Source of the DNA: an uncultured bacterium
GTDB taxonomy: Bacteria; Ratteibacteria; UBA8468; B48-G9; DSTR01
DNA length: 64,000 bases
Direction of reading: 5' to 3'
NCBI GenBank assembly: GCA_964645405.1
Contig: CAZYCA010000044.1
Coordinates: 78,503 to 142,502 of the forward strand
Made by a program: the position numbers and the translations under genes
Shown: in pieces, positions 4,004 to 61,432 of the stretch
Numbering within the stretch: position 1 is the stretch's first letter
Layout of the letters: each line of letters starts with the position of its first letter
The notes under the pieces: generated by a model
The model's input: only the letters and a program-made list of their open reading frames with translations
Databases searched by the model: none
What the model was told of the DNA's origin: nothing

Positions 4004-4039
4004 AGGGATGACATGACCTAAAAAAGATGGGGGAAGACA

Positions 4040-4516: not shown

Positions 4517-4595
4517 AAGGCTGTTTCGGTCTGAAAGTTTTGAGATAAAGCAGAAGTATTACCGCGGTAATCAGTTAAACAAAAAAGGGGGGAAA

Positions 4596-5270: not shown

Positions 5271-5320
5271 AAAATCCTGACAAAAAAGAATTTCAATTTC
5301 ATAGGAAAGGAGGTGAGAAA

Positions 5321-15266: not shown

Positions 15267-15279
15267 CTTCCCCCCATTT

Positions 15280-18654: not shown

Positions 18655-18670
18655 GGGCAGTTTTCCCTTA

Positions 18671-27108: not shown

Positions 27109-27854
27109 ATTCTGAATTTAGTACTCCAGGGACCATCATCTGTGCCAGAATTGGGCACTGGTGGTGTCACGTATTCTGCATGGCCATCAGCAAACAGAAT
27201 GTTTACACCGTAAAAATGGTGTCTTGCCCACCAGTCCACCACCGGCCGACCAACCGTGGTACTGGCAAAACTTCTGGGTAGCCTGACTATGTACTGGCTG
27301 AAATCTCCGAGGACAAAAAATCTGCTGGGTTCCGGTAACCGGCCAAGTCTTCTGGGACCGGTACCACCTGTTCCCCACCAGTTCCTTCCAAACTGAAGGG
27401 TAAAATTATAGCCATAACTGTGGCCCAGCCAGGAAATGGCAGTACTTGGCCAGCTTGTCGGACACTGAAACTGAGGGATAAACCTGTCAATAGAAGTTGG
27501 CAGAGTGGAATCATGGCAGGTTTTTCCTGTCAGATCTAATTTCGGGTCCAGATAATGAGCAATCTGTAACATCCAGTGAGCCCAGTATTCAGTATTATTC
27601 GGGTAGGTGCCACCAATCCTGGCCGGGTCCCAGGTTACTACGGGAAAATAATCATCATTGTCCTGAAGATACAGGAAAATTGCCAGTCCCATCTGTTTGC
27701 AGTTATTAAGGCAGGCAGCACGTCTGGCATTTTCTCTGGCTCTTTCCAGCACAGGTAAAAGAATGGCAGCTAAAATGGCAATGATGGCAATTACCACTAA
27801 CAATTCAATCAGGGTAAATCCATTTTTCACCCATAATTTTTTTCTGTCCATTTT
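27102..27854 (-). CDS. Prepilin-type N-terminal cleavage/methylation domain protein, DUF1559/H-X9-DG family (pseudopilin-like)
   Basis: Preferred start [11 protein letters not shown]|[24 protein letters not shown] (class III signal peptide, Glu at +5). C-terminal [13 protein letters not shown] matches H-X9-DG. The ORF-track start at 27932 would overlap the next gene. Confidence 0.7.
27720..27822 (-). repeat. About 100-nt segment roughly 80% identical to 28447-28548 (5' ends of the two tandem pseudopilin paralogues)
   Basis: Pairwise comparison by eye: ...ggtaaaagaatggcagctaaaatggcaatgatggcaattaccactaacaattcaatcagggtaaa... versus ...ggcaaaagcaaagcggctaaaatggcgatgatcgcaattaccactaataactcaatcaaagtaaaa... 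Confidence 0.5.
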
Positions 27855-27861
27855 TTCCTCC

Positions 27862-28566
27862 TCATTCAACAAAGGTAAACGGGTTATAAAGAACACCAAT
27901 ACCGGTGGTGGGATTATCAATGCTTTGTTCAATGTTAGGACCTGCTACCCACTGGACCCGGCCATCCATAAAAAGCACATTTACTCCCTGCCAGCCATGA
28001 TTCAGGTAGGCACCGGTGATTCTTGGCTGGTAAGCACTGGCAGTCGTATCCTGCTTTGCTTTCCAGATAGAACTACGTTTGTCAAACGTGTAGTACCACT
28101 TATCGCTTTCATCTATTAAGAGGGCAAACTTCTGGAAGTAGGGGTCACTGCTGACCTGAAGCTGGATGGCATAGGCGTAAGAACAGTGGTTTCTTTTATC
28201 CTTTCCGGTGGGACATCCTCCCGGACAGTTCTGGGAAATACGGGTATTGCGGCCGATATGGTCGTAGGTGCGGGCTGAAGGGCAGACAAAAACTCCGGCA
28301 GATTTCAGATACCCTTCTGTCTGTAGCATCGCCAGAGAACGCAGCATATTCAGGCTGTTGGGCCAGGAAGGAAAAAATCCTCCAAAATCCTGGGCATACA
28401 TAGTTAAAGATGTGCCCAGTTGTTTCAGGTTACTCGTACAGACGCCACGTCGCGCGTTTTCTCTTGCCCGGCCCAGGACAGGCAAAAGCAAAGCGGCTAA
28501 AATGGCGATGATCGCAATTACCACTAATAACTCAATCAAAGTAAAACCTTTACTGTCTGTCTTCAC
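27862..28566 (-). CDS. Prepilin-type N-terminal cleavage/methylation domain protein, DUF1559-like (second tandem paralogue)
   Basis: N-terminus MKTDSKG|[34 protein letters not shown]-terminal [19 protein letters not shown]. Its start overlaps the regulator stop (28563-28566). Confidence 0.7.
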
Positions 28567-29781: not shown

Positions 29782-30540
29782 ATGGTCAGACGGGAAACAC
29801 TGGTAAAGTTTATTGATAATTATCTGAAGACAACTGAGGTCAGGGATTCTTCCTGGAATGGATTGCAGGTAGAGGGTAAGGCTCTTGTAAGAAAAGTTGT
29901 GGGTGCTGTGGATGCGGGGCTGGAAACCTTCCGTGTGGCTCTGGCAAAAAAGGCGGATTTTTTGATAGTACATCATGGGCTTTTCTGGAAGCAGATTCTT
30001 CCTTATTTGACAGGGGTAAACAAGGAAAGAATTAAGATTCTACTGGATAACCAGCTATCTCTCTATGCCAGCCATCTACCTTTAGACAGGCATCCAAAAA
30101 TAGGCAACAATGCCCTGTTGTTGAAGACTATTGGCGCTAAGAAGGAAAGGGAATATTTTCTTTATGAGGGCCAGAGTATCTCCTGGACAGGTATTTTTCA
30201 ACCGGCTACAACTACAAAAGAAGTCGTAGCCAGGCTGGAAAAATATCTCCGGACAAACTGTCGGGTGCTGGACTTCGGACCGAAAAAGGTAAACCGGGTA
30301 GCTGTCTGCAGCGGTGCTGGTGGGCTGGCGGCTTTTACTCAGGCATTGAGCCAGGAAGTGGATTTGTATGTGACCGGGGAGGAAACTGATTTTTACCACC
30401 TGGCAAAGGACAACAATTGTGCAGTTATTTTTGCGGGTCACCATGCGACAGAAACCCTTGGTGTCCAGGCTTTATTGCGACTGGTAGCTGCCAGATGGAA
30501 GCTGGAGACAGTTTTTGTTGATATTCCTACCGGGCTTTGA
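29782..30540 (+). CDS. Nif3-family (YqfO/YbgI) dinuclear-metal-centre protein
   Basis: 252 aa. N-terminal HHGLFW and C-terminal GHHATE motifs. RBS AAGGAGGG. Confidence 0.65.
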   Translation: MVRRETLVKFIDNYLKTTEVRDSSWNGLQVEGKALVRKVVGAVDAGLETFRVALAKKADFLIVHHGLFWKQILPYLTGVNKERIKILLDNQLSLYASHLPLDRHPKIGNNALLLKTIGAKKEREYFLYEGQSISWTGIFQPATTTKEVVARLEKYLRTNCRVLDFGPKKVNRVAVCSGAGGLAAFTQALSQEVDLYVTGEETDFYHLAKDNNCAVIFAGHHATETLGVQALLRLVAARWKLETVFVDIPTGL

Positions 30541-30575
30541 TTTCTCGTGGTAAAGAAGTTTTTTGGAGGAGGGGA

Positions 30576-33500
30576 ATGGTTAATTTTCATATGGAGGAAC
30601 TTCGCCGTAGCCTCCCGGGGATGGCCGGTAAAGGGAAGGGAAACGGTTCTCTGCGTAGCAATCGGGAAGCTCCCTTGCGGGCAGAATTGCTCAGCATAGA
30701 ACAACTGAAGCGGCACGCAGTAGAGTTAGCCCGCCGGCATACGGCAGAAATAAAAGCCGGGGAGAATCTTCTTCTTGCCAGGTTAGATAAAAACGAAGAG
30801 ATTCTTTTACAGGCTTTCACAGAACTCAGCCAGGCAGTGGAGAAACAGCAGGAGCTTGTCCCGGCTGCTGAATGGTTAATTGATAACTTCTACCTCATCC
30901 AGGAGCAGATTAGACTGGCAAGAAAACATCTCCCGCGTTCTTATAGCCAGCAGCTGCCCAGTTTAACCAGAGGACCGTTGACTGGTTATCCCCGGGTTTA
31001 TGAGATTGCTTCCGAGCTTATTGCCCACAGCGATGGACGGGTGGAAGACAGAAATCTTTATACTTTCGTAGCAGGCTATCAAACGGAAAGTTTTCTCACC
31101 CTTGGTGAACTCTGGGCCATTCCGATTATGCTGCGGCTGGCTCTGATTGAAAACATCAGACGGATAGCCAGCCGGCTCATCAATAGCCGCGCCGCCCGTA
31201 CTGAAGCAGCCTACTGGGTAAACCAGATGAGTAAAGCAGTGGAACAAAGCCCTGATAATCTTATCCTTGTTGTCGCGGATATGGCGCGGGCAAATCCTGT
31301 CCTAAATTCCTCCTTTGTGGCTGAATATGCCAGACTTCTTCAGGGGCAGAGTGCCGTCTTTGTTCTTGCTCTCACCTGGCTGGAGCAGCGTCTGGCTGCT
31401 GAAGGTTCTTCCATTGAACAACAGGTGCGTTTAGAAAATCAAACCCAGGCCGCAGACCAGGTTTCCATCAGTAACAGTATCAACAGTCTGCGTTTTCTGG
31501 ATGGGATGGACTGGCATGAGTTTGTAGAAGGTGTCAGTGTAGTGGAATCAATTCTTCGGACTGACCCGGCTGACGTTTATTCCCGTATGGATTTTGCTAC
31601 CAGGGACCGTTATCGTCATGCAGTAGAAAAGTTAGCAAAATTTTCAGGGCAGAAGGAAGAACAGGTGGCACAGAAAGCGATTGAACTGGCTAGAACCTGT
31701 CGGCAGCAAAATGGGGAAGATATAAAATACAGCCATGTTGGTTTTTACCTGATAGGACCAGGTATCTCTGAGTTAGAAAAAGGCCTGGGCGTGCCATTGA
31801 CTTTCTGTCGCAGGCTAAAACTCTGGTGTCAGAAAAAGGTTTTTCTCTGGTATGCGGGCAGCATTGGAGTGATAACATTGGCTCTGTCGCTGTTTATTTT
31901 GCGGGCTATTGGTTACCTCCCGCTGTGGCTGGCAATTTTCACTCTTTTTTTGCTTTTCGTCGTTTGCAGTCAGCTTGCTGTTGCCTTGACCAACTGGATG
32001 ACAACACTTTTTGTCAAACCGGTGCTTTTACCGCGTCTTGATTTTTCCCGGGGATTACCTCCGGAGTGCAGGACGCTAATAGTTTTCCCGGTGATCTTAA
32101 GCGACAGCAAAACGGTGGAGCAACTCTTAGAAAATCTTGAAGTCCAGTACCTGGCTAATCGGGATGAACATATCCATCTGGGACTGCTTACTGATTTTAA
32201 AGATTCCTTCCAGGAAAAGGAACCGGAAGATGAAGTTCTTTTGCACGAGGTTAAGGAGGGTATTCGGAAACTTAACAGGCGGTACCGGAGCCAGGGACAG
32301 GATATCTTCTTCCTTTTTCATCGCGACCGGACTTGGAACCCAAAGGAAAAGTGCTGGATGGGTTATGAACGTAAAAGAGGCAAGCTGCTCGGGTTGAACA
32401 TGCTCATCCAGGAAGGGAGAAAGGATGCTTTTACCCTTATCCTGGGAGAAATGGAGACTTTAAGGAAAGTGCGTTATGTGGTCACTCTGGACGCTGACTG
32501 TCAGTTGCCCAGGGAAGCAGTACGCAAGATGGTCGGGTGTCTGGAGCATCCTCTGAACAAGCCCCGGTATGAGGAGAAGAAACAGACAGTGGTGGAGGGA
32601 TATGGTATCCTGCAGCCCCGGGTAGCAACCAGTCTAACAAGTGCCAATCGGTCTCTCTATGCGAGGTTTTTCAGCGGAGAGCCAGGTCTGGACCCCTATA
32701 CCAGAGTTGTCTCTGATGTCTATCAGGACCTTTTCCAGGAGGGCTCTTTTGTAGGTAAAGGTATCTACCATGTGGAAACTTTTACCAGGGCACTTAAAGA
32801 ACGTTTCCCTGATAATTTAATTCTCAGTCATGACCTTCTGGAAGGCTGTTATGTGCGTTGTGGTCTTATCAGCGATGTCCAGGTATATGAGAATTTTCCG
32901 GCTCGTTACAGTGCTGATGTAAAGAGAAGACACCGCTGGATTAGAGGAGACTGGCAGATTTTAGCCTGGCTTTTTCCCCGGGTCCCAGGAAGAAGAGAAA
33001 AATGGGTGGTCAATCCTCTGAACAGCATAAGCCGGTGGAAAATCTTTGATAATATAAGAAGGAGTCTCTTCCCTCCTTTCTTGCTGCTTTTGGTCCTGGT
33101 AGGATGGCTGTTTTTAAAACCGGTCTGGATCTGGACAGTTCTCACCTCCGGACTTATATTTTTACCACTTTTCCTGAATGCCGCCTGCGGGATGCTGCAA
33201 CGGTCAAGAGAGATGTACTGGCTGGCTGCTTTGCGCATTGCCTTCCGTTCCGCAGGCAAGTATTTTATTCAGGCCTGTTTCTTTCTTGTTTTCCTTCCTT
33301 ACGAGGCGTTTCTTTCGCTTGATGCCATCACCAGAACCATCTGGCGTCTTTTGATTACCAGGCGTGGGCTACTGCAATGGGTGACCTCTGTTGAATCAGA
33401 GAAGAAATCAGAAAGTAATCTCTCAGAATTTTTAAAACTGATGTGGGTGGCTCCGTTAATCTCCATAGCCAGCTTAGTATCTCTGACAGTTTTTTCCTCT

Positions 33501-36500
33501 GTTTCCTTGCTCTTTGCGGAAATTTTTATCTGGGGATGGCTGTTTTCCCCTGTGGTTGCCTGGTGGTTGAGCCAGCCGCTTGTGATCTGGGAGACAGGTT
33601 TAAATGAGCAACAGATTTATTTCCTTCGGCGGGTTGCCCGGAAAACCTGGAGTTTCTTTCAAACTTTTGTGAATGCCGGAACCAGGTATCTGCCACCGGA
33701 CAACTATCAGGAGTACCCGGTCAGACGCGTCGCTTACCGCACTTCACCAACCAACATTGGCCTGACTTTACTTTCTACGCTGGCAGCCCGGGATTTAGGG
33801 TATCTCACCGGCAGCCACTTTGTTTTTCGTCTGCAGCAGACTTTGAATACCCTTCAACGGTTGAAACGTTTCCGGAAGCATTTTTACAACTGGTATGATT
33901 TAAAAACCTTAGAGCCACTTGCCCCTGTTTACATTTCCACTGTGGATAGCGGAAATTTAGCCGGACATCTACTTGTTCTGCACCAGGCACTTTTGGAGAT
34001 GTGTGATTCTCCGATTTTTGCCGAACAGTCACTGGCTGGTTTGGGTGATACTCTGTATGTGCTGCTGGAAGTAGCCGGTCAAGCCGAGAAACACCAGTTA
34101 AGACAGCTACCGGTTTTTTCGCGGGTGATGCGGGCAGGCTGGCGAGAGTTGACAACCCAGATGGAACAACCCGTGAAATCTTTGACTGGTATGTTTTCCC
34201 TTTTAGAAAAGGTGAAAGAGATGCACCAGGTGATGGAGGGAGAACTGAGAACCAGAGACAGAGAGGTAAATCGCTGGCAGAGGCTGTTAAGGGAACACTA
34301 TCAATCCCTGGAGGAGGAGCTAAATACTATCAGTCCCTGGGTGAGATTGCTTGCCGAACGGCCGCAGAATAATCTCTGGGCAGAATCCGTGAGAAAAACC
34401 TTAGAAAAACTCTGCCAGCTGGTAGATGAAAATCTTCCCCTGAGGAAGCTGGCTAATCTTTCTGCAGAGTTAGAAGGTTATCTCAGTGACCTGAGGGATT
34501 ATGCGGCAGCAAGTCAAGCTTCTGATTTGCTTAAGTGGCTGGAAAAACTTTCTTCAGCGATTGAAAAAGGAGCAAGTAAGGCTGAGCAACGTTTGCAGGA
34601 TTTAACCTCCTTAGCGGAGAGATTTGCGGAAATGGCTGATATGGACTGGGATTTTCTTTATGACCGTTCCTCCCGGTTATTGTCACTCGGGTACCATGTG
34701 GCAGAAAGAAGAAAAGATGCCATCTATTATGACCTTCTGGCTTCAGAGGCAAGACTGGCCAGTTTTGTCGCTATCTCCCTGGGACTGCTTCCTCAGGAGC
34801 ACTGGTTTGCTCTAAATCGCTTAATCACCGGAGAAGGTGAGAATGCTGTCCTGGTCTCCTGGGGTGGGTCAATGTTTGAGTATTTAATGCCGCTTCTGGT
34901 GATGCCAAACTTCCGCGGGACTTTGCTTGACCAGTCATGTCAGGCTGCGGTCAGGAGGCAGATAGAGTATGCGGCGGAACGGGGTGTGCCCTGGGGAATC
35001 TCTGAAGCTGCCTACAACGCGGTAGATTCCAGCCGGAATTACCAGTATGATTCTTTTGGCGTCCCTGGTCTGGGTTTGAGAGCAGGACTAGCTGAGGACC
35101 TGGTGGTGGCGCCTTATGCCTCAGCTTTAGCGTTGATGGTAACACCAGCCAGAGCCTGCCAGAATTTACAGCGTTTAAGGAAGGAAGGGATGGAGGGCCG
35201 TTTTGGTTTCTATGAATCCGTGGACTATACACCAGGAAGACTGGTACCGGGTCAGGAGAAGGCAATTGTTCGGTGTTTTATGGCTCATCATGAGGGAATG
35301 AGTCTGGTTGCCATCGCTAACACCCTTTTAAACCTGCCCATGGTGCGGCGTTTCCGGCAGAATCCTTTTTTCCGTTCAGCTGAACTCCTGCTGCAGGAAA
35401 GGGTACCTGATGTGGAACCATTCCAGTGGCCAGCAGAAGAATTGCCGCGTTATCGTCGGACTTCAGAAAAACAGGCAGCACTGATGAGAATTTTTACTGA
35501 GCCTGATACCCCGATGCCAGAAATCCATCTTCTCTCCAACGGGCGTTATACCGTAATGGTCACAAATGCCGGAGGAGGTTTTAGTCGCTGGCAGGATATA
35601 CTCCTGACAAGATGGCGGGAGGATTACACCCGTGATAACTGGGGTCTTTTCTTCTATGTGAAAGATGTCTCTACAGGTCAGTTCTGGTCAATAGGTCACC
35701 AGCCAGCACTACGGCCTGGCCGCAGATATGAAGTTATTTTCTCCCAGGCGAGGGCTGAATTCAGAAGAGTTGACGGTGATTTTGTCACCCATATGGAAAT
35801 TGCTGTTTCTCCTGAGGATGATATTGAGCTGCGCCGTATCAGTATCACCAACCGTTCCTGGTCTACCCGGACGATAGAACTCACCAGTTATGCAGAAGTA
35901 GTTCTGGACCAGGCATCTTCTGATGCCACTCATCCTGCTTTCAGTAAACTTTTTGTCCAGACAGAAATCCTGAAGCAGAGGCAGGCGATTATCTGTACCA
36001 GGCGGCCGCGTTCAGAGAAAGAAAGAGGCCTCTGGTTTTTTCATCTGGTGACCATCCATGGTGAACCAGCAAGGTCAGTAACCTATGAAACGGACAGGAT
36101 GAAGTTTTTAGGTCGGGGGAGAACTCCAGCAGAGCCAGTGGCGCTGGAAAGGGAACTTTCTAACAGCCAGGGACCGGTTCTGGACCCGATTGTGGCTATC
36201 AGGTGTCATCTCACCCTGGAGCCAGATGAAACCAGGGTTGTTGACTTTATTTCCGGTGTGGCAACCGAGAGAGATAAAGCAGAGTTGTTGCTGGAACGCT
36301 ATCATGACCCTGATTTAGCCAGTCGTGTTTTCAGTTTAGCCTGGACCCACAGCCAGGTTGTTTTGCACCAGTTAAATACCACAGAAGCGGATGCTCAACT
36401 TTATGGAAGGTTAGCCGGTTCTATAGTGTACGGCGGACCACAGCGTCGTGCTCCTGCAGGAATTCTTTTGAGGAGTAGAGGCAGACAGTCTGCTCTCTGG

Positions 36501-39347
36501 GCGTATGGTATCTCAGGAGATTTACCGATTGTTCTGGTGCGCATCAGCGATGCTTCACGGGTGGAACTCATCAGACAGATTCTGCAGGCTCACGGTTACT
36601 GGCAGGCCAAGGGGTTGAAAGTTGACCTTGTTATCTGGAATGAAGAAACTGGTAGTTACCGTCAGCAGCTGCATGATTTAATCATGAATATTTTAGCCGG
36701 TTTCCCCAATACTCAACTGGATACTCCAGGTGGTGTTTTTGTGCGCCGTATTGATCAGATGACAGAAGAGGATAGACTTCTCATGCAGGCTGCAGCCAGA
36801 ATCATTCTTCAGGATAGCAGAGGGTTACTCCCAGACCAGATAAGTTACAGAGCTACTGCTGAACTTCCGCCTCTTATGATTCCGGAAAAGAGCCGGCGCC
36901 TGGAGGCAGGGGAAGGACTATCCAGAAGGAAGGATTTAGAGTTTGCTACTGACTATGGCGGTTTCACCGCTAATGGCAGAGAGTACGTTATCCATGTCTG
37001 GCGGAGAAGGTTACCTCCTGCTCCCTGGGTAAATGTTATTGCCAATCAGGTTTTCGGGACAGTAGTTTCAGAATCTGGTTCTGCTTACACCTGGGCGGAA
37101 AATGCCCATGAGTTTCGCCTTACACCCTGGTACAACGACCCGGTCTCAGATGTAAGTGGAGAAGTGGTATATCTCCGGGATGAGAAAACAGGATACTTCT
37201 GGTCAGCTACACCTCTTCCCGCAGGAGGACCATTTCTCTACAGAGTTACCCACGGGTTTGGTTATACGGTTTATGAGTACCAGGAAAACTTTCTTCATTC
37301 CCAGATGTGGGTGTTTATTGCTCCTGATATGCCGATAAAGTTTTTTTATCTGAAGCTAGATAATAACTCCTCACAGGCAATGAGGCTTTCGGCGACAATC
37401 TATGTGGAATGGATATTGGGACAGTTACGTTCTCAGACAGCCATGCATGTTTCTACAGAGGTGGATTCCCGAACAGGGGCTATCCTGGCGAGAAACCATT
37501 ACAATATAGAATTTGCTAATAGGGTTGTTTTCCTGGATGCAGGTGAAGCGGAACATGAGTTTTTAGAAAGAAGTGTTACCGGAGACCGCACAGAATTTTT
37601 GGGACGAAACGGCACCCCTGTAGCCCCGGAGGCCATGAAACGGGAACGTCTTTCCGGTAGAACTGGAGCAGGCTTTGACCCGTGCGGTGCAGTGCAGGTT
37701 TTCTTTGACCTGGAGGCTCAGGAGAGCAAGGAACTGGTTTTTGTTCTGGGAAGCGGGCATAACCTGGAACAGGTGCGCAGTCTCCTGCTCCGTTATAGAA
37801 ATGTTGCTGCTGCCAGGTCTGTCCTGAAAGATGTGCAGAACCGCTGGAGACAGTTACTCAGTGCAGTGCGGGTGGAAACACCTGATTTAGCGTTGAATAT
37901 TATGGCTAATGGATGGTTGTTATACCAGACGTTAGCCTGTCGGTTTTTTGGCCGGAGTGCCTTCTATCAGTCTTCAGGTGCCTACGGTTTCCGGGACCAG
38001 TTACAGGATGTGATGGCTCTGGTTCATGCCACACCTTCCCTGGTACGTCGTCATTTGTTACGATGTGCTTCCAGGCAGTTCCGGGAAGGAGATGTGCAAC
38101 ACTGGTGGCATCCGCGAATTAGCCGGGGTGTCCGCACCAGAATTTCTGATGACCTGCTCTGGTTGCCGTTAGCCACCAGCCGGTACATAGCTACCACCGG
38201 GGACAGGGAGGTGCTGGGACACCAGGTGCACTATCTGGTAGGTCGTCCTCTGGGAACCGGGGAAATAGATTATTATGATTTGCCCTATCAATCAGAAGAA
38301 ACAGGTTCCCTTTATGAACATTGCCGGCTGGCTATCCGTCGCGCCTGCCGGTTTGGACCACATGGACTGCCTTTAATGGGAAGTGGTGACTGGAATGATG
38401 GAATGAACATGGTAGGAATTGAAGGTAAAGGGGAGAGTGTCTGGCTTGGTTTCTTCCTTTACCATGTGTTAATGGAGTTTGCTCCGGTAGCTGAAGAGTG
38501 GGGAGATAAATCCTTTGCCGAAGAATGCCGTCAGATAGCCAGAAATTTACAGGAAAATATTGAGAAACATGGATGGGATGGAAAATGGTACAGGAGAGCT
38601 TATTTTGATAACGGGCAAGTCCTTGGTTCTTCAGTCAATGAGGAGTGCCAGATAGATTCCTTACCTCAGAGCTGGGCAGTTCTTTCCAGGGCTGCAGGAA
38701 GGCAGCGGGCTATTCTTGCTCTTTCCTCAGTAGAGGAATATCTTGTAGACGAGAAAGCTGGACTTATCAGGCTTTTATTCCCACCTTTTGACAGAAGTCA
38801 CCTGAACCCGGGGTACATAAAGGGCTATGTCCCGGGTGTGAGAGAAAATGGTGGTCAGTATAACCATGCTGCTTGCTGGGTGGCTATGGCTCTGGCACAT
38901 CTTGGTGAGGCTGATAATACCTGGAAAATTTTCCGGTTGCTGCATCCCATTTATCGGAGTGAAACTACGGAAAAAGCTGAACGTTATGCTGTGGAACCCT
39001 ATGTCATGGCAGGGGATATTTATGCTGTCAGTCCTCATACTGGAAAGGGAGGCTGGACCTGGTATACCGGAGCTAGTGGCTGGATGTACCAGCTTATACT
39101 GGAATCACTCTTGGGTTTAAGAAGGAAAGGGCAGATGATAGAAGTAGTTCCCTGTGTCCCTGAAAACTGGCTTTCTTACAAGATTCATTATCGCTTCGGG
39201 AAAAGCATCTATCATCTGGATATAATCAGAAAAGGACCGGGCAGTTCAGTCAAAACTGTTCTTCTGGACAACCAGTTTATCCAGGATAAAGCCTTTCCCC
39301 TGCAGGATGATGGGAAAGAACACCAGGTGGAAATTCACTTTGGCTGA
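30576..39347 (+). CDS. cgs: Cyclic beta-1,2-glucan synthase-like giant (about 2920 aa): N-terminal cytosolic domain, TM segments, GT84 glycosyltransferase, second TM cluster, helical middle region, C-terminal GH94 phosphorylase-like domain
   Basis: GT84-like region TLIVFPVILSDSKTVEQLLENLEVQYLANRDEHIHLGLLTDFKDS with DxD in VVTLDADCQ. Hydrophobic clusters near aa 440-490 and 830-1000. GH94 N-domain ANQVFGTVVSESGSAYTWAENAHEFRLTPWYNDPVSDVSGEVVYLRDEKTGYFWS and catalytic-region YQSSGAYGFRDQLQD. Start taken at the ATG at 30576 (RBS GGAGGAGGGGA 4 nt upstream) rather than the TTG at 30537. Confidence 0.7.
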   Translation: MVNFHMEELRRSLPGMAGKGKGNGSLRSNREAPLRAELLSIEQLKRHAVELARRHTAEIKAGENLLLARLDKNEEILLQAFTELSQAVEKQQELVPAAEWLIDNFYLIQEQIRLARKHLPRSYSQQLPSLTRGPLTGYPRVYEIASELIAHSDGRVEDRNLYTFVAGYQTESFLTLGELWAIPIMLRLALIENIRRIASRLINSRAARTEAAYWVNQMSKAVEQSPDNLILVVADMARANPVLNSSFVAEYARLLQGQSAVFVLALTWLEQRLAAEGSSIEQQVRLENQTQAADQVSISNSINSLRFLDGMDWHEFVEGVSVVESILRTDPADVYSRMDFATRDRYRHAVEKLAKFSGQKEEQVAQKAIELARTCRQQNGEDIKYSHVGFYLIGPGISELEKGLGVPLTFCRRLKLWCQKKVFLWYAGSIGVITLALSLFILRAIGYLPLWLAIFTLFLLFVVCSQLAVALTNWMTTLFVKPVLLPRLDFSRGLPPECRTLIVFPVILSDSKTVEQLLENLEVQYLANRDEHIHLGLLTDFKDSFQEKEPEDEVLLHEVKEGIRKLNRRYRSQGQDIFFLFHRDRTWNPKEKCWMGYERKRGKLLGLNMLIQEGRKDAFTLILGEMETLRKVRYVVTLDADCQLPREAVRKMVGCLEHPLNKPRYEEKKQTVVEGYGILQPRVATSLTSANRSLYARFFSGEPGLDPYTRVVSDVYQDLFQEGSFVGKGIYHVETFTRALKERFPDNLILSHDLLEGCYVRCGLISDVQVYENFPARYSADVKRRHRWIRGDWQILAWLFPRVPGRREKWVVNPLNSISRWKIFDNIRRSLFPPFLLLLVLVGWLFLKPVWIWTVLTSGLIFLPLFLNAACGMLQRSREMYWLAALRIAFRSAGKYFIQACFFLVFLPYEAFLSLDAITRTIWRLLITRRGLLQWVTSVESEKKSESNLSEFLKLMWVAPLISIASLVSLTVFSSVSLLFAEIFIWGWLFSPVVAWWLSQPLVIWETGLNEQQIYFLRRVARKTWSFFQTFVNAGTRYLPPDNYQEYPVRRVAYRTSPTNIGLTLLSTLAARDLGYLTGSHFVFRLQQTLNTLQRLKRFRKHFYNWYDLKTLEPLAPVYISTVDSGNLAGHLLVLHQALLEMCDSPIFAEQSLAGLGDTLYVLLEVAGQAEKHQLRQLPVFSRVMRAGWRELTTQMEQPVKSLTGMFSLLEKVKEMHQVMEGELRTRDREVNRWQRLLREHYQSLEEELNTISPWVRLLAERPQNNLWAESVRKTLEKLCQLVDENLPLRKLANLSAELEGYLSDLRDYAAASQASDLLKWLEKLSSAIEKGASKAEQRLQDLTSLAERFAEMADMDWDFLYDRSSRLLSLGYHVAERRKDAIYYDLLASEARLASFVAISLGLLPQEHWFALNRLITGEGENAVLVSWGGSMFEYLMPLLVMPNFRGTLLDQSCQAAVRRQIEYAAERGVPWGISEAAYNAVDSSRNYQYDSFGVPGLGLRAGLAEDLVVAPYASALALMVTPARACQNLQRLRKEGMEGRFGFYESVDYTPGRLVPGQEKAIVRCFMAHHEGMSLVAIANTLLNLPMVRRFRQNPFFRSAELLLQERVPDVEPFQWPAEELPRYRRTSEKQAALMRIFTEPDTPMPEIHLLSNGRYTVMVTNAGGGFSRWQDILLTRWREDYTRDNWGLFFYVKDVSTGQFWSIGHQPALRPGRRYEVIFSQARAEFRRVDGDFVTHMEIAVSPEDDIELRRISITNRSWSTRTIELTSYAEVVLDQASSDATHPAFSKLFVQTEILKQRQAIICTRRPRSEKERGLWFFHLVTIHGEPARSVTYETDRMKFLGRGRTPAEPVALERELSNSQGPVLDPIVAIRCHLTLEPDETRVVDFISGVATERDKAELLLERYHDPDLASRVFSLAWTHSQVVLHQLNTTEADAQLYGRLAGSIVYGGPQRRAPAGILLRSRGRQSALWAYGISGDLPIVLVRISDASRVELIRQILQAHGYWQAKGLKVDLVIWNEETGSYRQQLHDLIMNILAGFPNTQLDTPGGVFVRRIDQMTEEDRLLMQAAARIILQDSRGLLPDQISYRATAELPPLMIPEKSRRLEAGEGLSRRKDLEFATDYGGFTANGREYVIHVWRRRLPPAPWVNVIANQVFGTVVSESGSAYTWAENAHEFRLTPWYNDPVSDVSGEVVYLRDEKTGYFWSATPLPAGGPFLYRVTHGFGYTVYEYQENFLHSQMWVFIAPDMPIKFFYLKLDNNSSQAMRLSATIYVEWILGQLRSQTAMHVSTEVDSRTGAILARNHYNIEFANRVVFLDAGEAEHEFLERSVTGDRTEFLGRNGTPVAPEAMKRERLSGRTGAGFDPCGAVQVFFDLEAQESKELVFVLGSGHNLEQVRSLLLRYRNVAAARSVLKDVQNRWRQLLSAVRVETPDLALNIMANGWLLYQTLACRFFGRSAFYQSSGAYGFRDQLQDVMALVHATPSLVRRHLLRCASRQFREGDVQHWWHPRISRGVRTRISDDLLWLPLATSRYIATTGDREVLGHQVHYLVGRPLGTGEIDYYDLPYQSEETGSLYEHCRLAIRRACRFGPHGLPLMGSGDWNDGMNMVGIEGKGESVWLGFFLYHVLMEFAPVAEEWGDKSFAEECRQIARNLQENIEKHGWDGKWYRRAYFDNGQVLGSSVNEECQIDSLPQSWAVLSRAAGRQRAILALSSVEEYLVDEKAGLIRLLFPPFDRSHLNPGYIKGYVPGVRENGGQYNHAACWVAMALAHLGEADNTWKIFRLLHPIYRSETTEKAERYAVEPYVMAGDIYAVSPHTGKGGWTWYTGASGWMYQLILESLLGLRRKGQMIEVVPCVPENWLSYKIHYRFGKSIYHLDIIRKGPGSSVKTVLLDNQFIQDKAFPLQDDGKEHQVEIHFG

Positions 39348-44305: not shown

Positions 44306-44334
44306 TTGACATAGGCTATAGTTTATTGTACTAT
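44306..44334 (+). promoter_or_regulatory. sigma70-like promoter (TTGACA 44306-44311, 17-nt spacer, TACTAT 44329-44334) placing the transcription start at or next to the rpmA ATG, giving a leaderless mRNA
   Basis: Read from the sequence: tTTGACAtaggctatagtttattgTACTATataagcATG. No Shine-Dalgarno sequence lies between the -10 box and the ATG at 44341. Confidence 0.45.
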
Positions 44335-44340
44335 ATAAGC

Positions 44341-44589
44341 ATGGCACGCAAAAAACAGGGTAACGGAAGGGATTCCAATCCTAAAAGACTGGGCACCAAG
44401 GTTTTTTCTGGCCAGAAGGTGAAAGCCGGAGATATTATTGTGAGGCAGAAGGGCTCCCGGATTCAGCCCGGTAAGAATGTTGGCCGGGGACGGGATTTTA
44501 CCCTTTACAGTCTGGCTGAGGGAGTAGTTCAGTTTGGTGTGAGGAAGGGAAGAACTGTTGTGAATGTAGTTAGTTTTTCCTCCCCATGA
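44341..44589 (+). CDS. rpmA: 50S ribosomal protein L27
   Basis: [65 protein letters not shown] matches the L27 consensus. The ORF-track start at 44326 is 5 codons too long. Confidence 0.9.
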
Positions 44590-44945
44590 TAAGGACTGGC
44601 CTGGCTTTCTGTGAAGTATCCTTTATCAGAAAAGTGCTGGCAGAAAAGAAAGAGAAGAAATTTTTTACCAGCCAGGAATTGGCCAGAGGAAATCATCTCT
44701 CCCGGGCTGTTCACCTTTCAGGGGTGCTGGCAGCCAAGAAGGCTTTTCTGGACGCTCTCCAGAAGCCAGGATTTCAGCCACTTAACCAGATAAATATCCA
44801 CTCTTTAACAACAGGCTGTCCTGTACTGCAGACAGATTGTCCTTCCCTGAAATCTGCTTTACGCAAGAAAAAAGTTTGTATTTCTATCTCCCATACCAGG
44901 AAAACAGGAGTTGCTTTCTGTCTGATTTATTCCAGGAAAAAATAA
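44586..44945 (+). CDS. Holo-ACP synthase (AcpS)-like protein lacking both conserved Mg-ligand acidic residues
   Basis: Overall AcpS layout: GLAFCEV aligns to GIDIx[14 protein letters not shown] to FAAKEAxxKAL, and [16 protein letters not shown] to the HT/HS motif strand. Asp and Glu are replaced by Ala and Lys. The start overlaps the rpmA stop. Confidence 0.45.
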
Positions 44946-45855: not shown

Positions 45856-46179
45856 TTAAGAAACAGGGCTACCAGGTGGCAAATCCCTGTCCAGGGTTAA
45901 AATTGCCAGCTGATTGTTTGCCAGAGAAGCGAGAATCATTCCGTGACTTTCCACCCCGCGGATATTTTTGGTAGCAAGGTTGGTCAGGACAATCACGTTC
46001 TTACCCACCAGTTCCTCTTTCTGATACCAGGGTTTAATCCCGGCCACCATTTTTCTCTTTTCATTTCCTAAATCCACTGTCACCAGATAGAGTTTGTCAG
46101 CGTTTGGATGGTCCTCAACGTCTACCACCTTCCCCACTCTTAAATCCATTTTCTTGAATTCCTCAAAAGAAATATCCAT
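45856..46179 (-). CDS. csaA: tRNA-binding protein of the CsaA/Trbp111 type (EMAP-like OB fold)
   Basis: 107 aa: KMDLRVGKVVDVEDHPNADKLYLVTVDLGNEKRKMVAGIKPWY...ESHGMILAS, characteristic of CsaA and the MetRS C-terminal tRNA-binding domain. Confidence 0.75.
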   Translation of the reverse strand: MDISFEEFKKMDLRVGKVVDVEDHPNADKLYLVTVDLGNEKRKMVAGIKPWYQKEELVGKNVIVLTNLATKNIRGVESHGMILASLANNQLAILTLDRDLPPGSPVS

Positions 46180-46909: not shown

Positions 46910-47890
46910 ATGACCAGCAGAGAAGTGGTGAAAAGAACAGTGGAGTTCAGGAAACCAGCCTGGCTGGCGCACAACTTTCCTGAGCCTTACGGCACAGATT
47001 TTGCCTGGACAGGGCTGGACCCTTCACCTGATGCCAGACCAAAGTCAGGTAAGGATGAATGGGGTGCTATCTGGGAAAATATCGGGGTCAGTAATCTCGG
47101 TCAGGTAAAGGATTTCCCCATAAAAGACTGGTCTGATTTTGACAGGTTGCGGATACCTGACATCAAAGAGCCACAGAGATACCGTCATCTGGCGACTGCC
47201 AGGGAAAAGGCAGGAGATAAGTTTCTCTTAGGTGGTGGTATTTCCATATATGAAAGGGTGCACTTTCTCAGAGGATTGGAAAACACCTGGTCTGATATCT
47301 ACCAACATCCAGATGATCTGGGAAAGTTACTGGACCTTCTGGTGGAGATGAACCTGGTAGTGATTGATCGTTACGCTAAAGCCGGAGTGGATGGGTACAT
47401 CTTCTGTGATGACTGGGGTCTTCAGAACAGGCTGATGATTTCTCCGGAGAAGTGGCGCGAGCTCTGGAAACCCCGTTACCGTCGCATCTACCAGGCATGC
47501 CACCAGGCTGGTCTGGTGAGTTTTCTGCATTCCTGTGGTTACATTATGGATATTCTGGATGATTTGATTGAGGTGGGACTGGATGTGATTTGTATGGACC
47601 AGCAAGAAAATATGGGACTGGAATTGCTGGGAAAAAGATTTGGTGGACGCATTACTTTTTACGCTCCGGTTGACATTCAGAACACAATGGTTTACGGCAG
47701 TATCCAGGAAATTCGGGCTTACTGCTGGAAGATGGTAAAGTTTCTTGGCCGGCCAGAAGGGGGGTTCATCGCTGCGTGGTATTCTGACCCGGTCGGGGCT
47801 GGGCATCGGCAGGAGGCTATTGATGCTATGTGCCAGGAGTTCCTGAAAATAAGCCAGCAGGTTTATGGTAGTTCAGGTGGAAATACCTGA
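46910..47890 (+). CDS. Uroporphyrinogen-decarboxylase (URO-D) family protein (MtaA/CmuA-like fold), function unknown
   Basis: 326 aa with URO-D-family (beta/alpha)8 features: FCDDWGLQNRLMISPEKWRE and HSCGYIMDILDDLIEVGLDVI. RBS GGAGAGGAA. Confidence 0.55.
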   Translation: MTSREVVKRTVEFRKPAWLAHNFPEPYGTDFAWTGLDPSPDARPKSGKDEWGAIWENIGVSNLGQVKDFPIKDWSDFDRLRIPDIKEPQRYRHLATAREKAGDKFLLGGGISIYERVHFLRGLENTWSDIYQHPDDLGKLLDLLVEMNLVVIDRYAKAGVDGYIFCDDWGLQNRLMISPEKWRELWKPRYRRIYQACHQAGLVSFLHSCGYIMDILDDLIEVGLDVICMDQQENMGLELLGKRFGGRITFYAPVDIQNTMVYGSIQEIRAYCWKMVKFLGRPEGGFIAAWYSDPVGAGHRQEAIDAMCQEFLKISQQVYGSSGGNT

Positions 47891-60220: not shown

Positions 60221-61432
60221 CTACAGCCATCCAGTGAGAAAGGCAAGGTAGCGGCAATAATTCAAAAAATCAGGCCAGGAAATGTCAGGTGGTACCCCGT
60301 GGTCGCAGCCAGGGATATAACCACCCTCTTTCAATAAAGGTGGGATCACCCTTTCCAGTTCCTTTTTCATCACTTCTCCGCCCCTGGCTATTGCTCTTTT
60401 ATCCAGTCCACCCTGGTATGCCATCTTTTTGTGAAACTGATTACGGAAGGCGACAATGTCATTTCCTGCTGCTACCTCAATCGGAGTAGTGGCGTTGATA
60501 CCGGACTCAATCCACAGGGGAATAAGCTGTCCGATGTAACCATCTGAATCCAGCATGATAATCTGGCAACCACTTTCTCTCAACCTTTGAGACCAGGCTG
60601 TCCAGGAGGGGCTAAGGAATTTTCTTACCATGGCAGGGGAAATCATGGCTTTCTCTTTATAAGCCATATCTTCGCTGATAATGACATAATCAAAGGTAAC
60701 AAAATCAACTACCCTGTCCAGAACAGAAAGAACAAACTTTTTCCAGAAGTTAGCCATCTCATCAACAAAATCTGGCTGGGTAGCCATAAGAAGACAAAGG
60801 CCTTCCAAACCGCACCAGTCTCTCATGGTCCAGAAAGGTCCTGGAATGCCAATCCCGCAGACAGTTTCCCGGTTCCTTAAGCAACTGGCTACTTTTTCTA
60901 TATCTTCGGGATACCGGTCTTCAGTATCTGGGTTATATCTTTTCTTCATCCTTTCCCAGTCGGAGAAGTTTTCCACCGGAAACTTATGCCATTTTCTGGT
61001 GACAAAGTCCTTGGCAGTACGCAGGTAACTGAAATCGTACTGGTCAGAGATTTCTACAATAGCACCTTTGCTATCCTGAACCAGATAATGGCCAGCACAG
61101 TGCTGGATAATTTTTTCTTCAAAGGGTGGAAGGGGAGCAAAAGAAAGTCTGAAGGCAGGAACTTCTTCCTTTTTTGGTTCTGCGGGCAAACCAATCTGGT
61201 GTTTAAGATACTCAAACCAGTTAACATTTCTTGGTAGCCCCTGGCTGTACCAGACATTCAGCGTTGATTCCCGTGGCCCACCCGGAGCAAAATAGACTTT
61301 ATCAGGCTTCCCGAACAAAAGTGATTGCAGAAATCTTTCTCTTTCCGTCAAATTTCCTCCTTTCCCGTGAAAGATGTTCCTTGAAGAATCCTTTCTGCGT
61401 TCTGCCACCAGACCCACTCCTGGAATTCCCAA
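60221..61432 (-). CDS. URO-D-family protein (second paralogue)
   Basis: C-terminal URO-D-like region QIIMLDSDGYIGQLIPLWIESGINATTPIEV...GGYIPGCDHGVPPDISWPDF. The 5' end overlaps the upstream amidohydrolase gene by 85 nt, so the true start is probably internal or a non-ATG codon. Confidence 0.5.
   Translation of the reverse strand: MGIPGVGLVAERRKDSSRNIFHGKGGNLTERERFLQSLLFGKPDKVYFAPGGPRESTLNVWYSQGLPRNVNWFEYLKHQIGLPAEPKKEEVPAFRLSFAPLPPFEEKIIQHCAGHYLVQDSKGAIVEISDQYDFSYLRTAKDFVTRKWHKFPVENFSDWERMKKRYNPDTEDRYPEDIEKVASCLRNRETVCGIGIPGPFWTMRDWCGLEGLCLLMATQPDFVDEMANFWKKFVLSVLDRVVDFVTFDYVIISEDMAYKEKAMISPAMVRKFLSPSWTAWSQRLRESGCQIIMLDSDGYIGQLIPLWIESGINATTPIEVAAGNDIVAFRNQFHKKMAYQGGLDKRAIARGGEVMKKELERVIPPLLKEGGYIPGCDHGVPPDISWPDFLNYCRYLAFLTGWL

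What the first reader, a model, noticed from the sequence alone, without database searches (positions are those of the whole stretch)
44586..44945. AcpS-like ORF with both Mg2+-ligand acidic residues substituted
The 119-aa product aligns along the whole holo-ACP synthase fold: [18 protein letters not shown] and [16 protein letters not shown]. However, the N-terminal Asp of the GxDxxE box is Ala, and the Glu of the AAKEA box is Lys. Both residues coordinate the catalytic Mg2+ in characterised AcpS enzymes. The gene is translationally coupled to rpmA (stop/start overlap) and sits upstream of the YjeF-C dehydratase, a pairing seen in many genomes. Possible explanations: a pseudo-enzyme, a divergent metal-independent PPTase, or a sequencing/assembly error at two codons.
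Basis: partly seen in the sequence, partly recalled or inferred. Interest (0 to 1): 0.5.

Follow-up and report, generated by a model that had tools for sequence, protein, structure and literature searches.

The report
AcpS paralogue lacking its catalytic half
A small conserved relative of holo-ACP synthase, sitting between the ribosomal protein L27 gene and an NAD(P)HX-repair gene in a poorly known bacterial lineage, has lost the metal-binding catalytic half of its active site but kept the half that holds the nucleotide of coenzyme A, so it probably cannot work alone and may need a partner subunit.

Summary
ORF 44586-44945 (119 aa) has a confident AcpS fold (AF2 pLDDT 94; TM about 0.8 to solved AcpS). 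Profile alignments fix the register: Asp8 is Ala7 and Glu58 is Lys52. The catalytic Lys62 is Asp56, and the ACP-docking Arg14 is Phe13.

It is not a sequencing error. The identical gene occurs in independent assemblies, and orthologues at 47-50% identity keep Ala and Lys.

The ORF belongs to a monophyletic clade of about 50 protein clusters (Ratteibacteria/Omnitrophota-labelled MAGs). None of them has the canonical Asp+Glu pair, which is invariant in 201 other AcpS. The clade keeps the other face of the interfacial active site (Gly52, Gly-Lys/Arg-Pro, Ser-x-Ser-His-Thr).

The block rpmA, this gene, stand-alone nnrD is conserved: rpmA upstream in 16/16 lineages, nnrD downstream in 16/17.

One related contig also carries a second AcpS paralogue with the inverse pattern: catalytic face intact, nucleotide face lost. 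A fused protein shows both halves in the same order as Sfp-type enzymes.

Best reading (about 0.4): a non-catalytic, nucleotide-binding protomer of a split PPTase. Rivals are a stand-alone pseudoenzyme tied to NnrD, or a metal-independent PPTase. The partner gene was not shown in this genome.

The parts
44306..44334 (+). Sigma-70-like promoter (TTGACA, 17 nt, TACTAT) for the rpmA / AcpS-like / nnrD block. It ends 6 nt before the rpmA ATG.
   Evidence: Consensus scan, 10 of 12 matches. This is a pattern match only.
44341..44589 (+). rpmA (ribosomal protein L27), 82 aa from the ATG. The ORF lister starts it at the TTG at 44326.
   Evidence: Pfam PF01016, E 2.8e-28. Called as 82 aa in L004. 72-79% identical in L006 and L007.
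44586..44589 (+). ATGA overlap: the start of the AcpS-like gene overlaps the stop of rpmA. No Shine-Dalgarno sequence lies upstream.
   Evidence: Read from the sequence. The same overlap or near-abutment occurs in L006, L007, L009-L011, L024, L034 and L035.
44586..44945 (+). AcpS-fold protein 'X' (119 aa), the beta-type degenerate paralogue.
44604..44606 (+). Codon GCT = Ala7, at the position of the Mg ligand Asp8.
   Evidence: Alignment to 3hyk and 1f80. Asp in 198/198 ordinary AcpS against 6/50 in the clade.
44739..44741 (+). Codon AAG = Lys52, at the position of the Mg ligand Glu58.
   Evidence: Glu in 201/201 ordinary AcpS against 2/50 in the clade.
44751..44753 (+). Codon GAC = Asp56, at the position of the catalytic Lys62.
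   Evidence: Lys in 201/201 ordinary AcpS. The role of this lysine is taken from PMC3447402.
44883..44897 (+). Ser100-Ile-Ser102-His103-Thr104, the retained nucleotide-phosphate-binding strand.
   Evidence: Invariant or nearly invariant in the clade, 48-50 of 50. The residues' roles are taken from PMC3447402.
44947..45831 (+). nnrD: stand-alone YjeF C-terminal domain, an ADP-dependent NAD(P)H-hydrate dehydratase of 294 aa with no YjeF_N epimerase domain.
   Evidence: PF01256, E 6e-54. TIGR00196, 217.7 bits against a cutoff of 129.85. Conserved downstream partner in 16/17 lineages.

Best explanation
X is a diverged paralogue of AcpS-type (group I) phosphopantetheinyl transferase. On its own it cannot carry out Mg-dependent phosphopantetheinyl transfer.

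In AcpS the active site lies between two protomers. One face supplies Asp8, Glu58 and Lys62 (Mg2+ binding and catalysis) and the ACP-docking arginines. The neighbouring protomer supplies the pocket for the 3'-phospho-ADP part of CoA: Gly52/Arg53, Gly-Lys-Pro, and Ser-x-Ser-His. X has lost the first face and kept the second.

The most likely mechanism is that X binds the nucleotide end of CoA and completes an active site with a protomer that carries the other face. That partner would be a second, inversely degenerate AcpS paralogue. This is how the N-terminal half of Sfp-type PPTases serves the C-terminal catalytic half.

Shown: the fold, the register, the asymmetric conservation of the two faces, purifying selection, the conserved operon, and one genome holding both complementary paralogues.

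Inferred: that X binds CoA, that the two paralogues assemble, and that the window's own genome has the partner.
For: (1) The catalytic face is degenerate and the nucleotide face is conserved. Counts are for the 50-member clade against 201 ordinary AcpS:
- Asp8: 6/50 against 198/198.
- Glu58: 2/50 against 201/201. The clade has K, D, T, R, L, Q or I here.
- Basic residue at Arg14: 1/50 against 185/201.
- Gly52: 50/50.
- Basic residue at Lys86: 47/50.
- Pro87: 49/50.
- Ser100/Ser102/His103/Thr104: 48-50 of 50.

(2) Assignment of residues to the two protomers follows PMC3447402. Asp8/Glu57/Lys61 come from one chain. Lys51, His80, Ser111/Asp112 and Pro86 come from the neighbouring chain.

(3) Contig L034 carries the rpmA-X-nnrD block and, 8.2 kb away, a second AcpS-family gene (P0377). 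P0377 keeps G6, D8, E11, R14, K28, E58 and K62. It has lost R53, N81 (W), G85 (D), S100 (D), H103 (F) and T104 (N). Both proteins come from one MAG: HPP66748.1 and HPP66606.1.

(4) The fused protein P0106 has an X-like N-half (D8G, E58R, K62D, SISH kept) and a P0377-like C-half (D, E, K kept; S102I, H103P, P87Y).

(5) Clade members score as well on Pfam PF22624, the non-catalytic N-half of Sfp-type enzymes, as on ACPS. Both scores are below threshold.

(6) The E. coli AcpS D9A mutant was crystallised with CoA bound (PDB 5xuh). So loss of this Asp is compatible with CoA binding.

(7) X is under purifying selection. pN is 0.34-0.37 against saturated pS of 0.70-0.76. The clade is exactly monophyletic in an NJ tree.
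Against: - The complementary paralogue was seen in only one lineage. It was not found in the 64-kb window or in about 0.4 Mb of flanks of other loci. Its presence in this genome is untested.
- X is never adjacent to that paralogue. It is welded to rpmA and nnrD, which this model does not explain.
- Heteromeric AcpS assemblies are not known to me, and no paper on one was found.
- Lys62, a catalytic-face residue, is still K or R in 43/50 clade members.
- In the window trio the nucleotide face is also eroded: Arg53 is Val and Asn81 is Ser.
- By sequence the clade matches only AcpS-type and fungal FAS PPT structures, not Sfp-type ones. The Sfp resemblance is therefore analogy, not membership.
Confidence: 0.4

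Rival explanations
1. X is a stand-alone pseudoenzyme. It is an AcpS-fold homotrimer that still binds an adenine nucleotide (CoA, 3',5'-ADP or similar) but transfers nothing. It has acquired a new role tied to the genes it is co-translated with. Most plausibly it is a ligand-binding or regulatory partner of the stand-alone NAD(P)HX dehydratase NnrD.
For: - The block rpmA, X, nnrD is conserved while outer flanks differ. rpmA lies upstream in 16/16 lineages and nnrD downstream in 16/17, with overlapping or abutting stops and starts.
- No ordinary AcpS locus examined has either neighbour.
- nnrD here always lacks the YjeF_N domain (284-303 aa).
- Both Mg ligands and the ACP-docking Arg14 are lost.
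- Position 52 varies among K, D, T, R, L, Q and I, as expected if it no longer has a catalytic role.
- No Shine-Dalgarno sequence precedes X, so its expression is tied to a highly expressed ribosomal protein gene.
Against: - Gene order alone is weak evidence. rpmA and nnrD themselves have no known functional link, so the block may be kept by translational coupling only.
- One lineage (L024) has a response regulator in place of nnrD.
- This reading does not explain why the second paralogue in L034 shows the exact inverse degeneration.
- No biochemical connection between CoA-type ligands and NnrD is established here.
Confidence: 0.3
2. X is still the lineage's working holo-ACP synthase and uses a non-canonical active site. 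For example, Lys or Arg at position 52 takes the place of Mg2+ on the CoA pyrophosphate, and His103 acts as the base.
For: - The gene is a single conserved housekeeping-operon gene of the right size, with a confident AcpS fold.
- Lys57, Ser102, His103 and Gly-x-Pro are invariant, and Lys62 is K or R in 43/50.
- 25/50 members have Lys or Arg at position 52, and 37/50 keep an acidic residue (mostly Glu) at position 7. Nine have the swapped Glu...Asp pair.
- The clade is basic, median pI 9.6, as suits an acidic ACP partner.
- No other PPTase was seen in the window.
- In the sister phylum Omnitrophota, three of three tabulated genomes have ACP, FAS II and lpxA genes, one K00997 call and no Sfp-type KO.
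Against: - The residue at position 52 is not conserved within the clade and includes Leu, Ile, Thr and Gln. It therefore cannot be a shared catalytic substitute.
- 11/50 members, including the window protein, have no acidic residue at either ligand position.
- The ACP-docking Arg14 is Asp or Glu in 36/50.
- The window trio also lacks Arg53 and, except P0003, Lys62.
- A second paralogue with intact Asp, Glu and Lys exists in one clade member's genome.
- AcpS requires Mg (PMC3447402).
- The Omnitrophota tables concern genomes not shown to carry X. All 11 clade members tested fall below the Pfam and TIGR00516 thresholds, so those annotation calls probably mark a different gene.
Confidence: 0.12
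3. The substitutions are a sequencing or assembly artefact, or the ORF is a decaying pseudogene.
For: None beyond the unusual residues. X evolves faster than its neighbours: 47% identity against 64% for NnrD and 72% for L27 over the same species pair.
Against: - The ORF DNA is identical in five other assemblies from other samples, including strains that differ by 13-16 SNPs elsewhere.
- Ala7 and Lys52 are conserved in orthologues at 47-50% identity.
- Intact ORFs of 107-142 aa occur in at least 17 lineages.
- pN is far below saturated pS.
Confidence: 0.02

Closest known systems
AcpS-type (group I) holo-[acyl-carrier-protein] synthase, e.g. B. subtilis AcpS (PDB 1F7L/1F80) and B. anthracis AcpS (3HYK)
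   Same: - Same size (about 120 aa) and same alpha/beta fold, TM about 0.8.
- Alignable along the full length, E 2e-16 with the clade profile.
- Keeps Glu34, Gly52, Lys57, Gly85, Pro87, and the Ser-x-Ser-His-Thr strand that contacts the CoA 3'- and 5'-phosphates.
- Descends from within AcpS-type sequences.
   Different: - Lacks both Mg ligands: Asp8 is Ala and Glu58 is Lys.
- Lacks the catalytic Lys62 (Asp), Arg53 (Val) and the ACP-docking Arg14 (Phe).
- Falls below every curated AcpS threshold: Pfam no hit, TIGR00516 23 bits against 59.8.
- Has a fixed rpmA ... nnrD context that ordinary acpS genes in this sample lack.
N-terminal half-domain of Sfp-type (group II) PPTases (Pfam PF22624 AASDHPPT_N, PF17837 4PPT_N)
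   Same: It shows the same pattern of retention and loss: no Mg ligands, but the nucleotide-binding elements are kept. In Sfp-type enzymes that half pairs with a catalytic half to form one active site (established knowledge of Sfp-type pseudodimers). Clade members give weak PF22624 matches equal to their ACPS matches. The fused protein P0106 shows an X-like half followed by a catalytic half.
   Different: - X is a separate 119-aa protein, not fused to a catalytic half.
- The window protein itself has no PF22624 hit.
- The clade profile finds no Sfp-type structure at E<=10.
- X derives from AcpS-type sequences, so the resemblance is functional analogy, not family membership.
Engineered E. coli AcpS D9A (PDB 5XUH)
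   Same: The same Asp-to-Ala change at the first Mg ligand. That mutant was crystallised with CoA bound.
   Different: A laboratory point mutant of an otherwise canonical enzyme. X carries many further changes and is a naturally conserved gene.
NnrE (YjeF_N) epimerase, the usual N-terminal partner of NnrD
   Same: X occupies the position directly upstream of, and translationally coupled to, the YjeF_C dehydratase. In these lineages the dehydratase lacks the YjeF_N domain.
   Different: No sequence or fold similarity was found. The X model matches AcpS structures only. No evidence for epimerase activity.

Membership tests
AcpS-type (group I) PPTase | About 120-aa alpha/beta AcpS fold | tested here: met
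   AF2 model with 119-sequence alignment: pLDDT 94.1, pTM 0.88. Foldseek top 50 hits are all AcpS-type or fungal FAS PPT structures, TM 0.74-0.85.
AcpS-type (group I) PPTase | Sequence match to curated family models above their thresholds (Pfam PF01648, TIGR00516) | tested here: not met
   PF01648 gives no hit at E<=1. TIGR00516 scores 23.4 bits against a cutoff of 59.8, and TIGR00556 scores 27.4 against 45.35. Homology is nevertheless significant with custom profiles.
AcpS-type (group I) PPTase | Mg2+ ligands Asp8 (GxD motif) and Glu58 (AAKEA motif) | tested here: not met
   The window protein has Ala7 and Lys52. The residues are invariant in 198/198 and 201/201 other AcpS retrieved here.
AcpS-type (group I) PPTase | Conserved catalytic Lys62 | tested here: not met
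   Asp56 in the window protein, Gln in P0002 and Lys in P0003. The role of this lysine is from PMC3447402.
AcpS-type (group I) PPTase | Basic ACP-docking residues on helix 1 (Arg14, Arg28) | tested here: not met
   Phe13 at Arg14, and Lys25 at Arg28. In the clade, position 14 is Asp or Glu in 36/50.
AcpS-type (group I) PPTase | Pocket for the 3'-phospho-ADP part of CoA (Gly52/Arg53, Gly85-x-Pro87, Ser102-His103) | tested here: inconclusive
   Gly46, Gly77, Pro79, Ser100, Ser102, His103 and Thr104 are kept. Arg53 is Val47 and Asn81 is Ser73. Ligand binding was not measured.
AcpS-type (group I) PPTase | Homotrimer with three interfacial active sites, and apo-ACP to holo-ACP activity | not testable with these tools
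   No multimer prediction or assay was available.
Sfp-type PPTase N-terminal half-domain (PF22624/PF17837) | Match to the Pfam half-domain models | tested here: not met
   The window protein has no hit. Ten relatives score 12-22.7 bits against a threshold of 27. No Sfp-type structure is hit by the clade profile.
Sfp-type PPTase N-terminal half-domain (PF22624/PF17837) | Covalently fused to a catalytic C-terminal half | tested here: not met
   X is a stand-alone 119-aa ORF. A fused analogue exists elsewhere (P0106).
Sfp-type PPTase N-terminal half-domain (PF22624/PF17837) | Lacks Mg ligands but keeps nucleotide-binding elements, and is complemented by a partner that carries Asp/Glu/Lys | tested here: inconclusive
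   The first part is met. A complementary partner was seen in one related genome only (L034), not in this window.
Pseudoenzyme (catalytically dead homologue kept by selection) | Loss of invariant catalytic residues together with evidence of purifying selection | tested here: met
   Residue losses. pN 0.34-0.37 against saturated pS. Intact ORFs in at least 17 lineages. The clade is monophyletic. Actual inactivity was not measured.

The most novel reading that the evidence does not exclude
X has left phosphopantetheinyl transfer altogether. It would be an AcpS-fold nucleotide-binding protein recruited to NAD(P)HX repair as the obligatory partner of a stand-alone NnrD. For example, it could supply the missing NnrE-type epimerase function, or present the ADP or NADPHX ligand. 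This would explain why it is fixed between rpmA and nnrD in 16/17 lineages and why nnrD there always lacks the YjeF_N domain.
Probability: 0.08. Interest if true: 0.8.

Novelty: new variant of a known kind. Interest (0 to 1): 0.55.

Why it matters
AcpS-type PPTases are textbook homotrimers whose Asp/Glu Mg site is treated as invariant and essential. Here a whole bacterial clade keeps an AcpS gene under selection after losing exactly one face of the interfacial active site. In at least one genome a second paralogue has lost the other face.

If the two assemble, this would be a two-gene, hetero-oligomeric PPTase. It would be a living intermediate between AcpS homotrimers and Sfp-type pseudodimers. 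It would also be a clean case of complementary degeneration at a protein interface.

There is a practical consequence. Annotation pipelines either miss these genes or label both paralogues '4'-phosphopantetheinyl transferase superfamily protein'. Metabolic reconstructions of Ratteibacteria and Omnitrophota may therefore miscount PPTases.

If instead X works with NnrD, it would be a new function for the AcpS fold.

Tried and rejected
- Pfam scan of the ORF gave no hit, so homology had to be shown with custom profiles.
- A single-sequence PDB search gave only a spurious lipovitellin hit.
- AF2 with three sequences gave an unusable model, pLDDT 47. It was repeated with 119 sequences.
- The afdb50 fold library was not available.
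It was repeated with 6 sequences.
- A second PPTase, an Sfp-type enzyme and ACP were looked for in the window and all loci, and none was found.
- Naming or placing the closest ordinary AcpS sequences led nowhere. The clusters carry no names. The profile search returned Clostridiales, Cloacimonetes and WOR-3 names, none Omnitrophica or Ratteibacteria. P0281, chosen for its 386-kb contig, is a Firmicute-like acpS-pemK locus.
- Literature searches on Omnitrophota fatty-acid synthesis, PPTase pseudoenzymes and YjeF-AcpS links found nothing relevant.
- The per-genome KO, Pfam and TIGRFAM tables of Seymour et al. 2023 show acpS, acpP and FAS II in Omnitrophota. I do not use them as evidence of co-occurrence. 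The stored rows are Omnitrophota proper, whereas the window's nearest relative is GTDB Ratteibacteria.
- Strain-level dN/dS had no power, because the assemblies differ by 0.1% or less and the ORF has no differences.
- The idea of a Glu58/Lys62 charge swap (Lys52/Asp56) was rejected, because Asp56 is not conserved in the trio (Gln, Lys).
- The conserved Cys112 was considered as a clade-specific catalytic residue and rejected, because related ordinary AcpS sequences also have Cys there.
Full report
**Observation**

Its ATG overlaps the rpmA stop codon as ATGA. One base separates its stop from the start of a 294-aa YjeF C-terminal-domain gene. That gene matches PF01256 (E 6e-54) and TIGR00196 (217.7 bits against a cutoff of 129.85).

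Curated models barely see the protein. Pfam ACPS gives no hit at E<=1. TIGR00516 gives 23.4 bits against a cutoff of 59.8. The homology is nevertheless secure:
- A profile of three orthologues hits B. subtilis and B. anthracis AcpS structures.
- The 17-member clade profile hits them at E 2e-16.
- An HMM of 126 ordinary AcpS gives 78.9 bits.
- An AF2 model built on 119 sequences has pLDDT 94.1. It matches solved AcpS at TM about 0.8, with AcpS-type or fungal FAS PPT domains as all top 50 hits.

The HMMER alignments fix the register. GLAFCE aligns with GIDIIE and AAKKAF with AAKEA.

**Not an artefact**

The identical protein is on at least 8 contigs from JGI, Logan, ENA and NCBI sources. Five fetched loci have identical ORF DNA. 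Three of them differ from the window by 13-16 SNPs elsewhere, so they are independent strains and assemblies. Two orthologues at 50% and 47% identity keep Ala7 and Lys52.

**A clade, not a single gene**

An exhaustive profile search and a second word-indexed search recover about 50 protein clusters. They are separated by a score gap from ordinary AcpS, and the sources label them Candidatus Omnitrophica, Ratteibacteria or 'bacterium'. In a neighbour-joining tree of 251 AcpS sequences these 50 form one exact clade (no support values).

None of the 50 has the canonical Asp+Glu pair.
- The Asp8 position holds E 31, A 6, D 6, G 4, T 2, S 1.
- The Glu58 position holds K 20, D 10, T 10, R 5, E 2, L 1, Q 1, I 1.

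The comparison set is 201 other AcpS retrieved by the same searches. Four further outliers (P0056, P0057, P0106, P0111) were set aside. In that set, Asp8 is present in 198/198, and Glu58 and Lys62 in 201/201. Arg14 is basic in 185/201 and Arg28 in 180/201. In the clade, Arg14 is Asp or Glu in 36/50 and basic in 1/50.

By contrast, several positions are as conserved as in working enzymes, or more so: Glu34, Gly52, Lys57, Gly85, a basic residue at 86, Pro87, and Ser100-x-Ser102-His103-Thr104.

Halavaty et al. (PMC3447402) describe the AcpS site as interfacial. Asp8, Glu57/58 and Lys61/62 of one chain hold the metal and the pyrophosphate. Residues of the neighbouring chain hold the 3'-phosphate, ribose and adenine. 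These correspond to Arg53, Asn81, Pro86/87 and Ser-His (Ser-Asp in V. cholerae). Arg14 and Arg28 dock ACP, and the enzyme requires Mg.

The clade has therefore lost one face of the site (metal, catalytic Lys in part, ACP docking) and kept the other (nucleotide). The window protein and its two closest orthologues are the most eroded members. They also have Arg53 as Val and Lys86 as Cys. Position Lys62 is Asp, Gln or Lys in the three.

**Selection**

Between the window, L006 and L007, synonymous sites are saturated (pS 0.70-0.76). pN is 0.34-0.37 for X, 0.21-0.24 for nnrD, 0.13-0.18 for rpmA and 0.08-0.09 for csaA. X evolves fastest of the four genes but is clearly constrained.

**Context**

Gene order could be read in 17 distinct lineages of the clade. 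rpmA lies immediately upstream in 16 of 16 lineages with upstream sequence. A stand-alone nnrD (284-303 aa, no YjeF_N domain) lies immediately downstream in 16 of 17. The exception, L024, has a response regulator instead. Outer flanks differ between lineages.

None of the ordinary AcpS loci fetched has either neighbour. These are L008, L012, L013, L014/15, L022, L027, L028, L030 and L032.

No Shine-Dalgarno sequence precedes X, so its translation probably depends on coupling to rpmA. A promoter-like TTGACA-17-TACTAT sits just upstream of rpmA.

**Organism**

The nearest relative's genome is L006, isolate QZM4_2.bins.498.Tibet. It is labelled Omnitrophota by NCBI but is GTDB p__Ratteibacteria, c__UBA8468, o__B48-G9 in Table S1 of Seymour et al. 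2023. The window encodes GH38, GH94 and GH123 enzymes, DUF1559 pseudopilin-like proteins, rubrerythrin and desulfoferrodoxin. That fits an anaerobic saccharolytic member of the PVC group. No ACP, FAS or second PPTase gene lies in the 64 kb.

**The second paralogue**

The last context look-ups gave the most informative result. Contig L034 (74.5 kb) carries rpmA, X (P0034) and nnrD. It also carries, 8.2 kb upstream, another AcpS-family gene, P0377, with PF01648 at 46.6 bits. Both proteins belong to one MAG, and both are named '4'-phosphopantetheinyl transferase superfamily protein'.

P0377 is the mirror image of X. It keeps Gly6, Asp8, Glu11, Arg14, Lys28, Glu58 and Lys62. It has lost Arg53, Asn81 (Trp), Gly85 (Asp), Ser100 (Asp), His103 (Phe) and Thr104 (Asn). 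It too scores far below ordinary AcpS on the ordinary-AcpS HMM: 59 bits against 120-148.

A 270-aa protein found in the exhaustive search (P0106) is a fusion of two AcpS-like halves with the same complementary pattern. The N-half is X-like: Asp8 is Gly, Glu58 is Arg, Lys62 is Asp, and SISH is kept. The C-half is P0377-like: Asp, Glu and Lys are kept, Ser102 is Ile, His103 is Pro and Pro87 is Tyr.

That is the architecture of Sfp-type PPTases. In those enzymes a non-catalytic N-half and a catalytic C-half form one site (established knowledge). Clade members give weak Pfam matches to the Sfp N-half model PF22624 that equal their ACPS scores. By sequence, however, the clade hits only AcpS-type and fungal PPT structures. 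So X works like an Sfp N-half but is not a member of that family.

**Interpretation**

My best explanation (about 0.4) is that X is the non-catalytic, nucleotide-binding protomer of a split PPTase. Its catalytic face would be supplied by an inversely degenerate paralogue.

This rests on one genome plus one fusion. The partner has not been shown in the window's genome, and the model does not explain the rpmA/nnrD linkage.

The main rival (about 0.3) is a stand-alone pseudoenzyme with a role tied to NnrD. It explains the synteny but not the mirror-image paralogue.

A metal-independent, self-sufficient PPTase (about 0.12) is disfavoured. Position 52 is not conserved within the clade, the ACP-docking arginine is charge-reversed, and a paralogue with the intact Mg site exists.

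Error or pseudogene is excluded.

**What I could not do**

I could not scan whole genomes for the partner gene, predict heteromers, or assay anything.

The KO, Pfam and TIGRFAM tables of Seymour et al. show acpS, acpP, fabD/F, plsX and lpxA, and no Sfp-type KO, in the few Omnitrophota genomes stored. Those genomes are not shown to carry X. Eleven clade members tested fall below the Pfam and TIGR00516 thresholds. I therefore treat these tables only as evidence that the wider group uses ACP.

**Novelty**

No paper in the library links PPTases with pseudoenzymes, or AcpS with YjeF. I rate this a new variant of a known kind: an AcpS-derived clade with a half-degenerate interfacial active site and a fixed operon context. 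It is of moderate interest now, and of higher interest if the two-gene PPTase or the NnrD link is confirmed.

Noticed in passing
window 44306-44341: rpmA stands alone, with no rplU upstream and a divergently transcribed DHDPS-like gene instead. A TTGACA-17-TACTAT promoter-like site ends 6 nt before the rpmA ATG, which suggests a leaderless or near-leaderless mRNA. The ORF lister's TTG start at 44326 is probably wrong.
   Followed up: partly
L034:1395-1754 (contig Ga0116245_10000522): A second AcpS-family gene (P0377) lies between a dCTP-deaminase-like gene and an NAD-epimerase gene. It has an intact Asp/Glu/Lys catalytic face, but His103 is Phe, Ser100 is Asp and Gly85 is Asp. It is the mirror image of the finding's protein.
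   Followed up: partly
protein P0106 (270 aa): A tandem fusion of two AcpS-like domains. The N-half lacks the Mg ligands but keeps SISH. The C-half keeps Asp/Glu/Lys but lacks Ser-His. It looks like a minimal Sfp-like pseudodimer built from AcpS-type halves.
   Followed up: partly
L024:1869-3009: This is the only clade locus where the gene after the AcpS-like ORF is a response regulator (148 aa) instead of nnrD. rpmA coupling is kept: a GTG start overlaps the rpmA stop.
   Followed up: no
window 30537-39347 (+): A 2936-aa protein with GH94, glycoamylase and GH94 beta-supersandwich domains, in the cyclic-glucan-synthase or cellobionic-acid-phosphorylase class. It lies next to a NIF3 gene.
   Followed up: no
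window 11931-28566 (-): A run of four very large ORFs (1111, 1124, 1155 and 1657 aa). Two have GH123 catalytic domains and two have no Pfam match at all. They are followed by two DUF1559/N-terminal-methylation pseudopilin-like genes and a GntR/LacI-type regulator.
   Followed up: no
window 3313-6212 (+): An oxidative-stress cluster typical of anaerobes: Fur-family regulator, 1-Cys/AhpC peroxiredoxin, rubrerythrin and desulfoferrodoxin.
   Followed up: no
window 45856-46179 (-): A CsaA-like tRNA-binding-domain protein (107 aa) is unusually conserved: 84-88% identity to L006 and L007, against 64-66% for NnrD. It stays near the block in the closest lineages and in L010.
   Followed up: no
window 46910-47890 and 60221-61432; also L010: Several URO-D-family paralogues (uroporphyrinogen decarboxylase / methyltransferase-like) recur near the block in the window and in the Ratteibacteria locus L010.
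   Followed up: no
protein P0006 (1503 aa): A highly repetitive protein matched the three-sequence profile in 15 stretches (E 3e-15). It is a tandem-repeat sequence unrelated to AcpS, so this is a spurious profile hit worth remembering when reading that list.
   Followed up: partly
L006 / Seymour et al. 2023 Table S1: The NCBI label 'Candidatus Omnitrophota/Omnitrophica' on several of these MAGs conflicts with the GTDB placement in Ratteibacteria (UBA8468, B48-G9). The clade may be a Ratteibacteria marker rather than an Omnitrophota one.
   Followed up: partly
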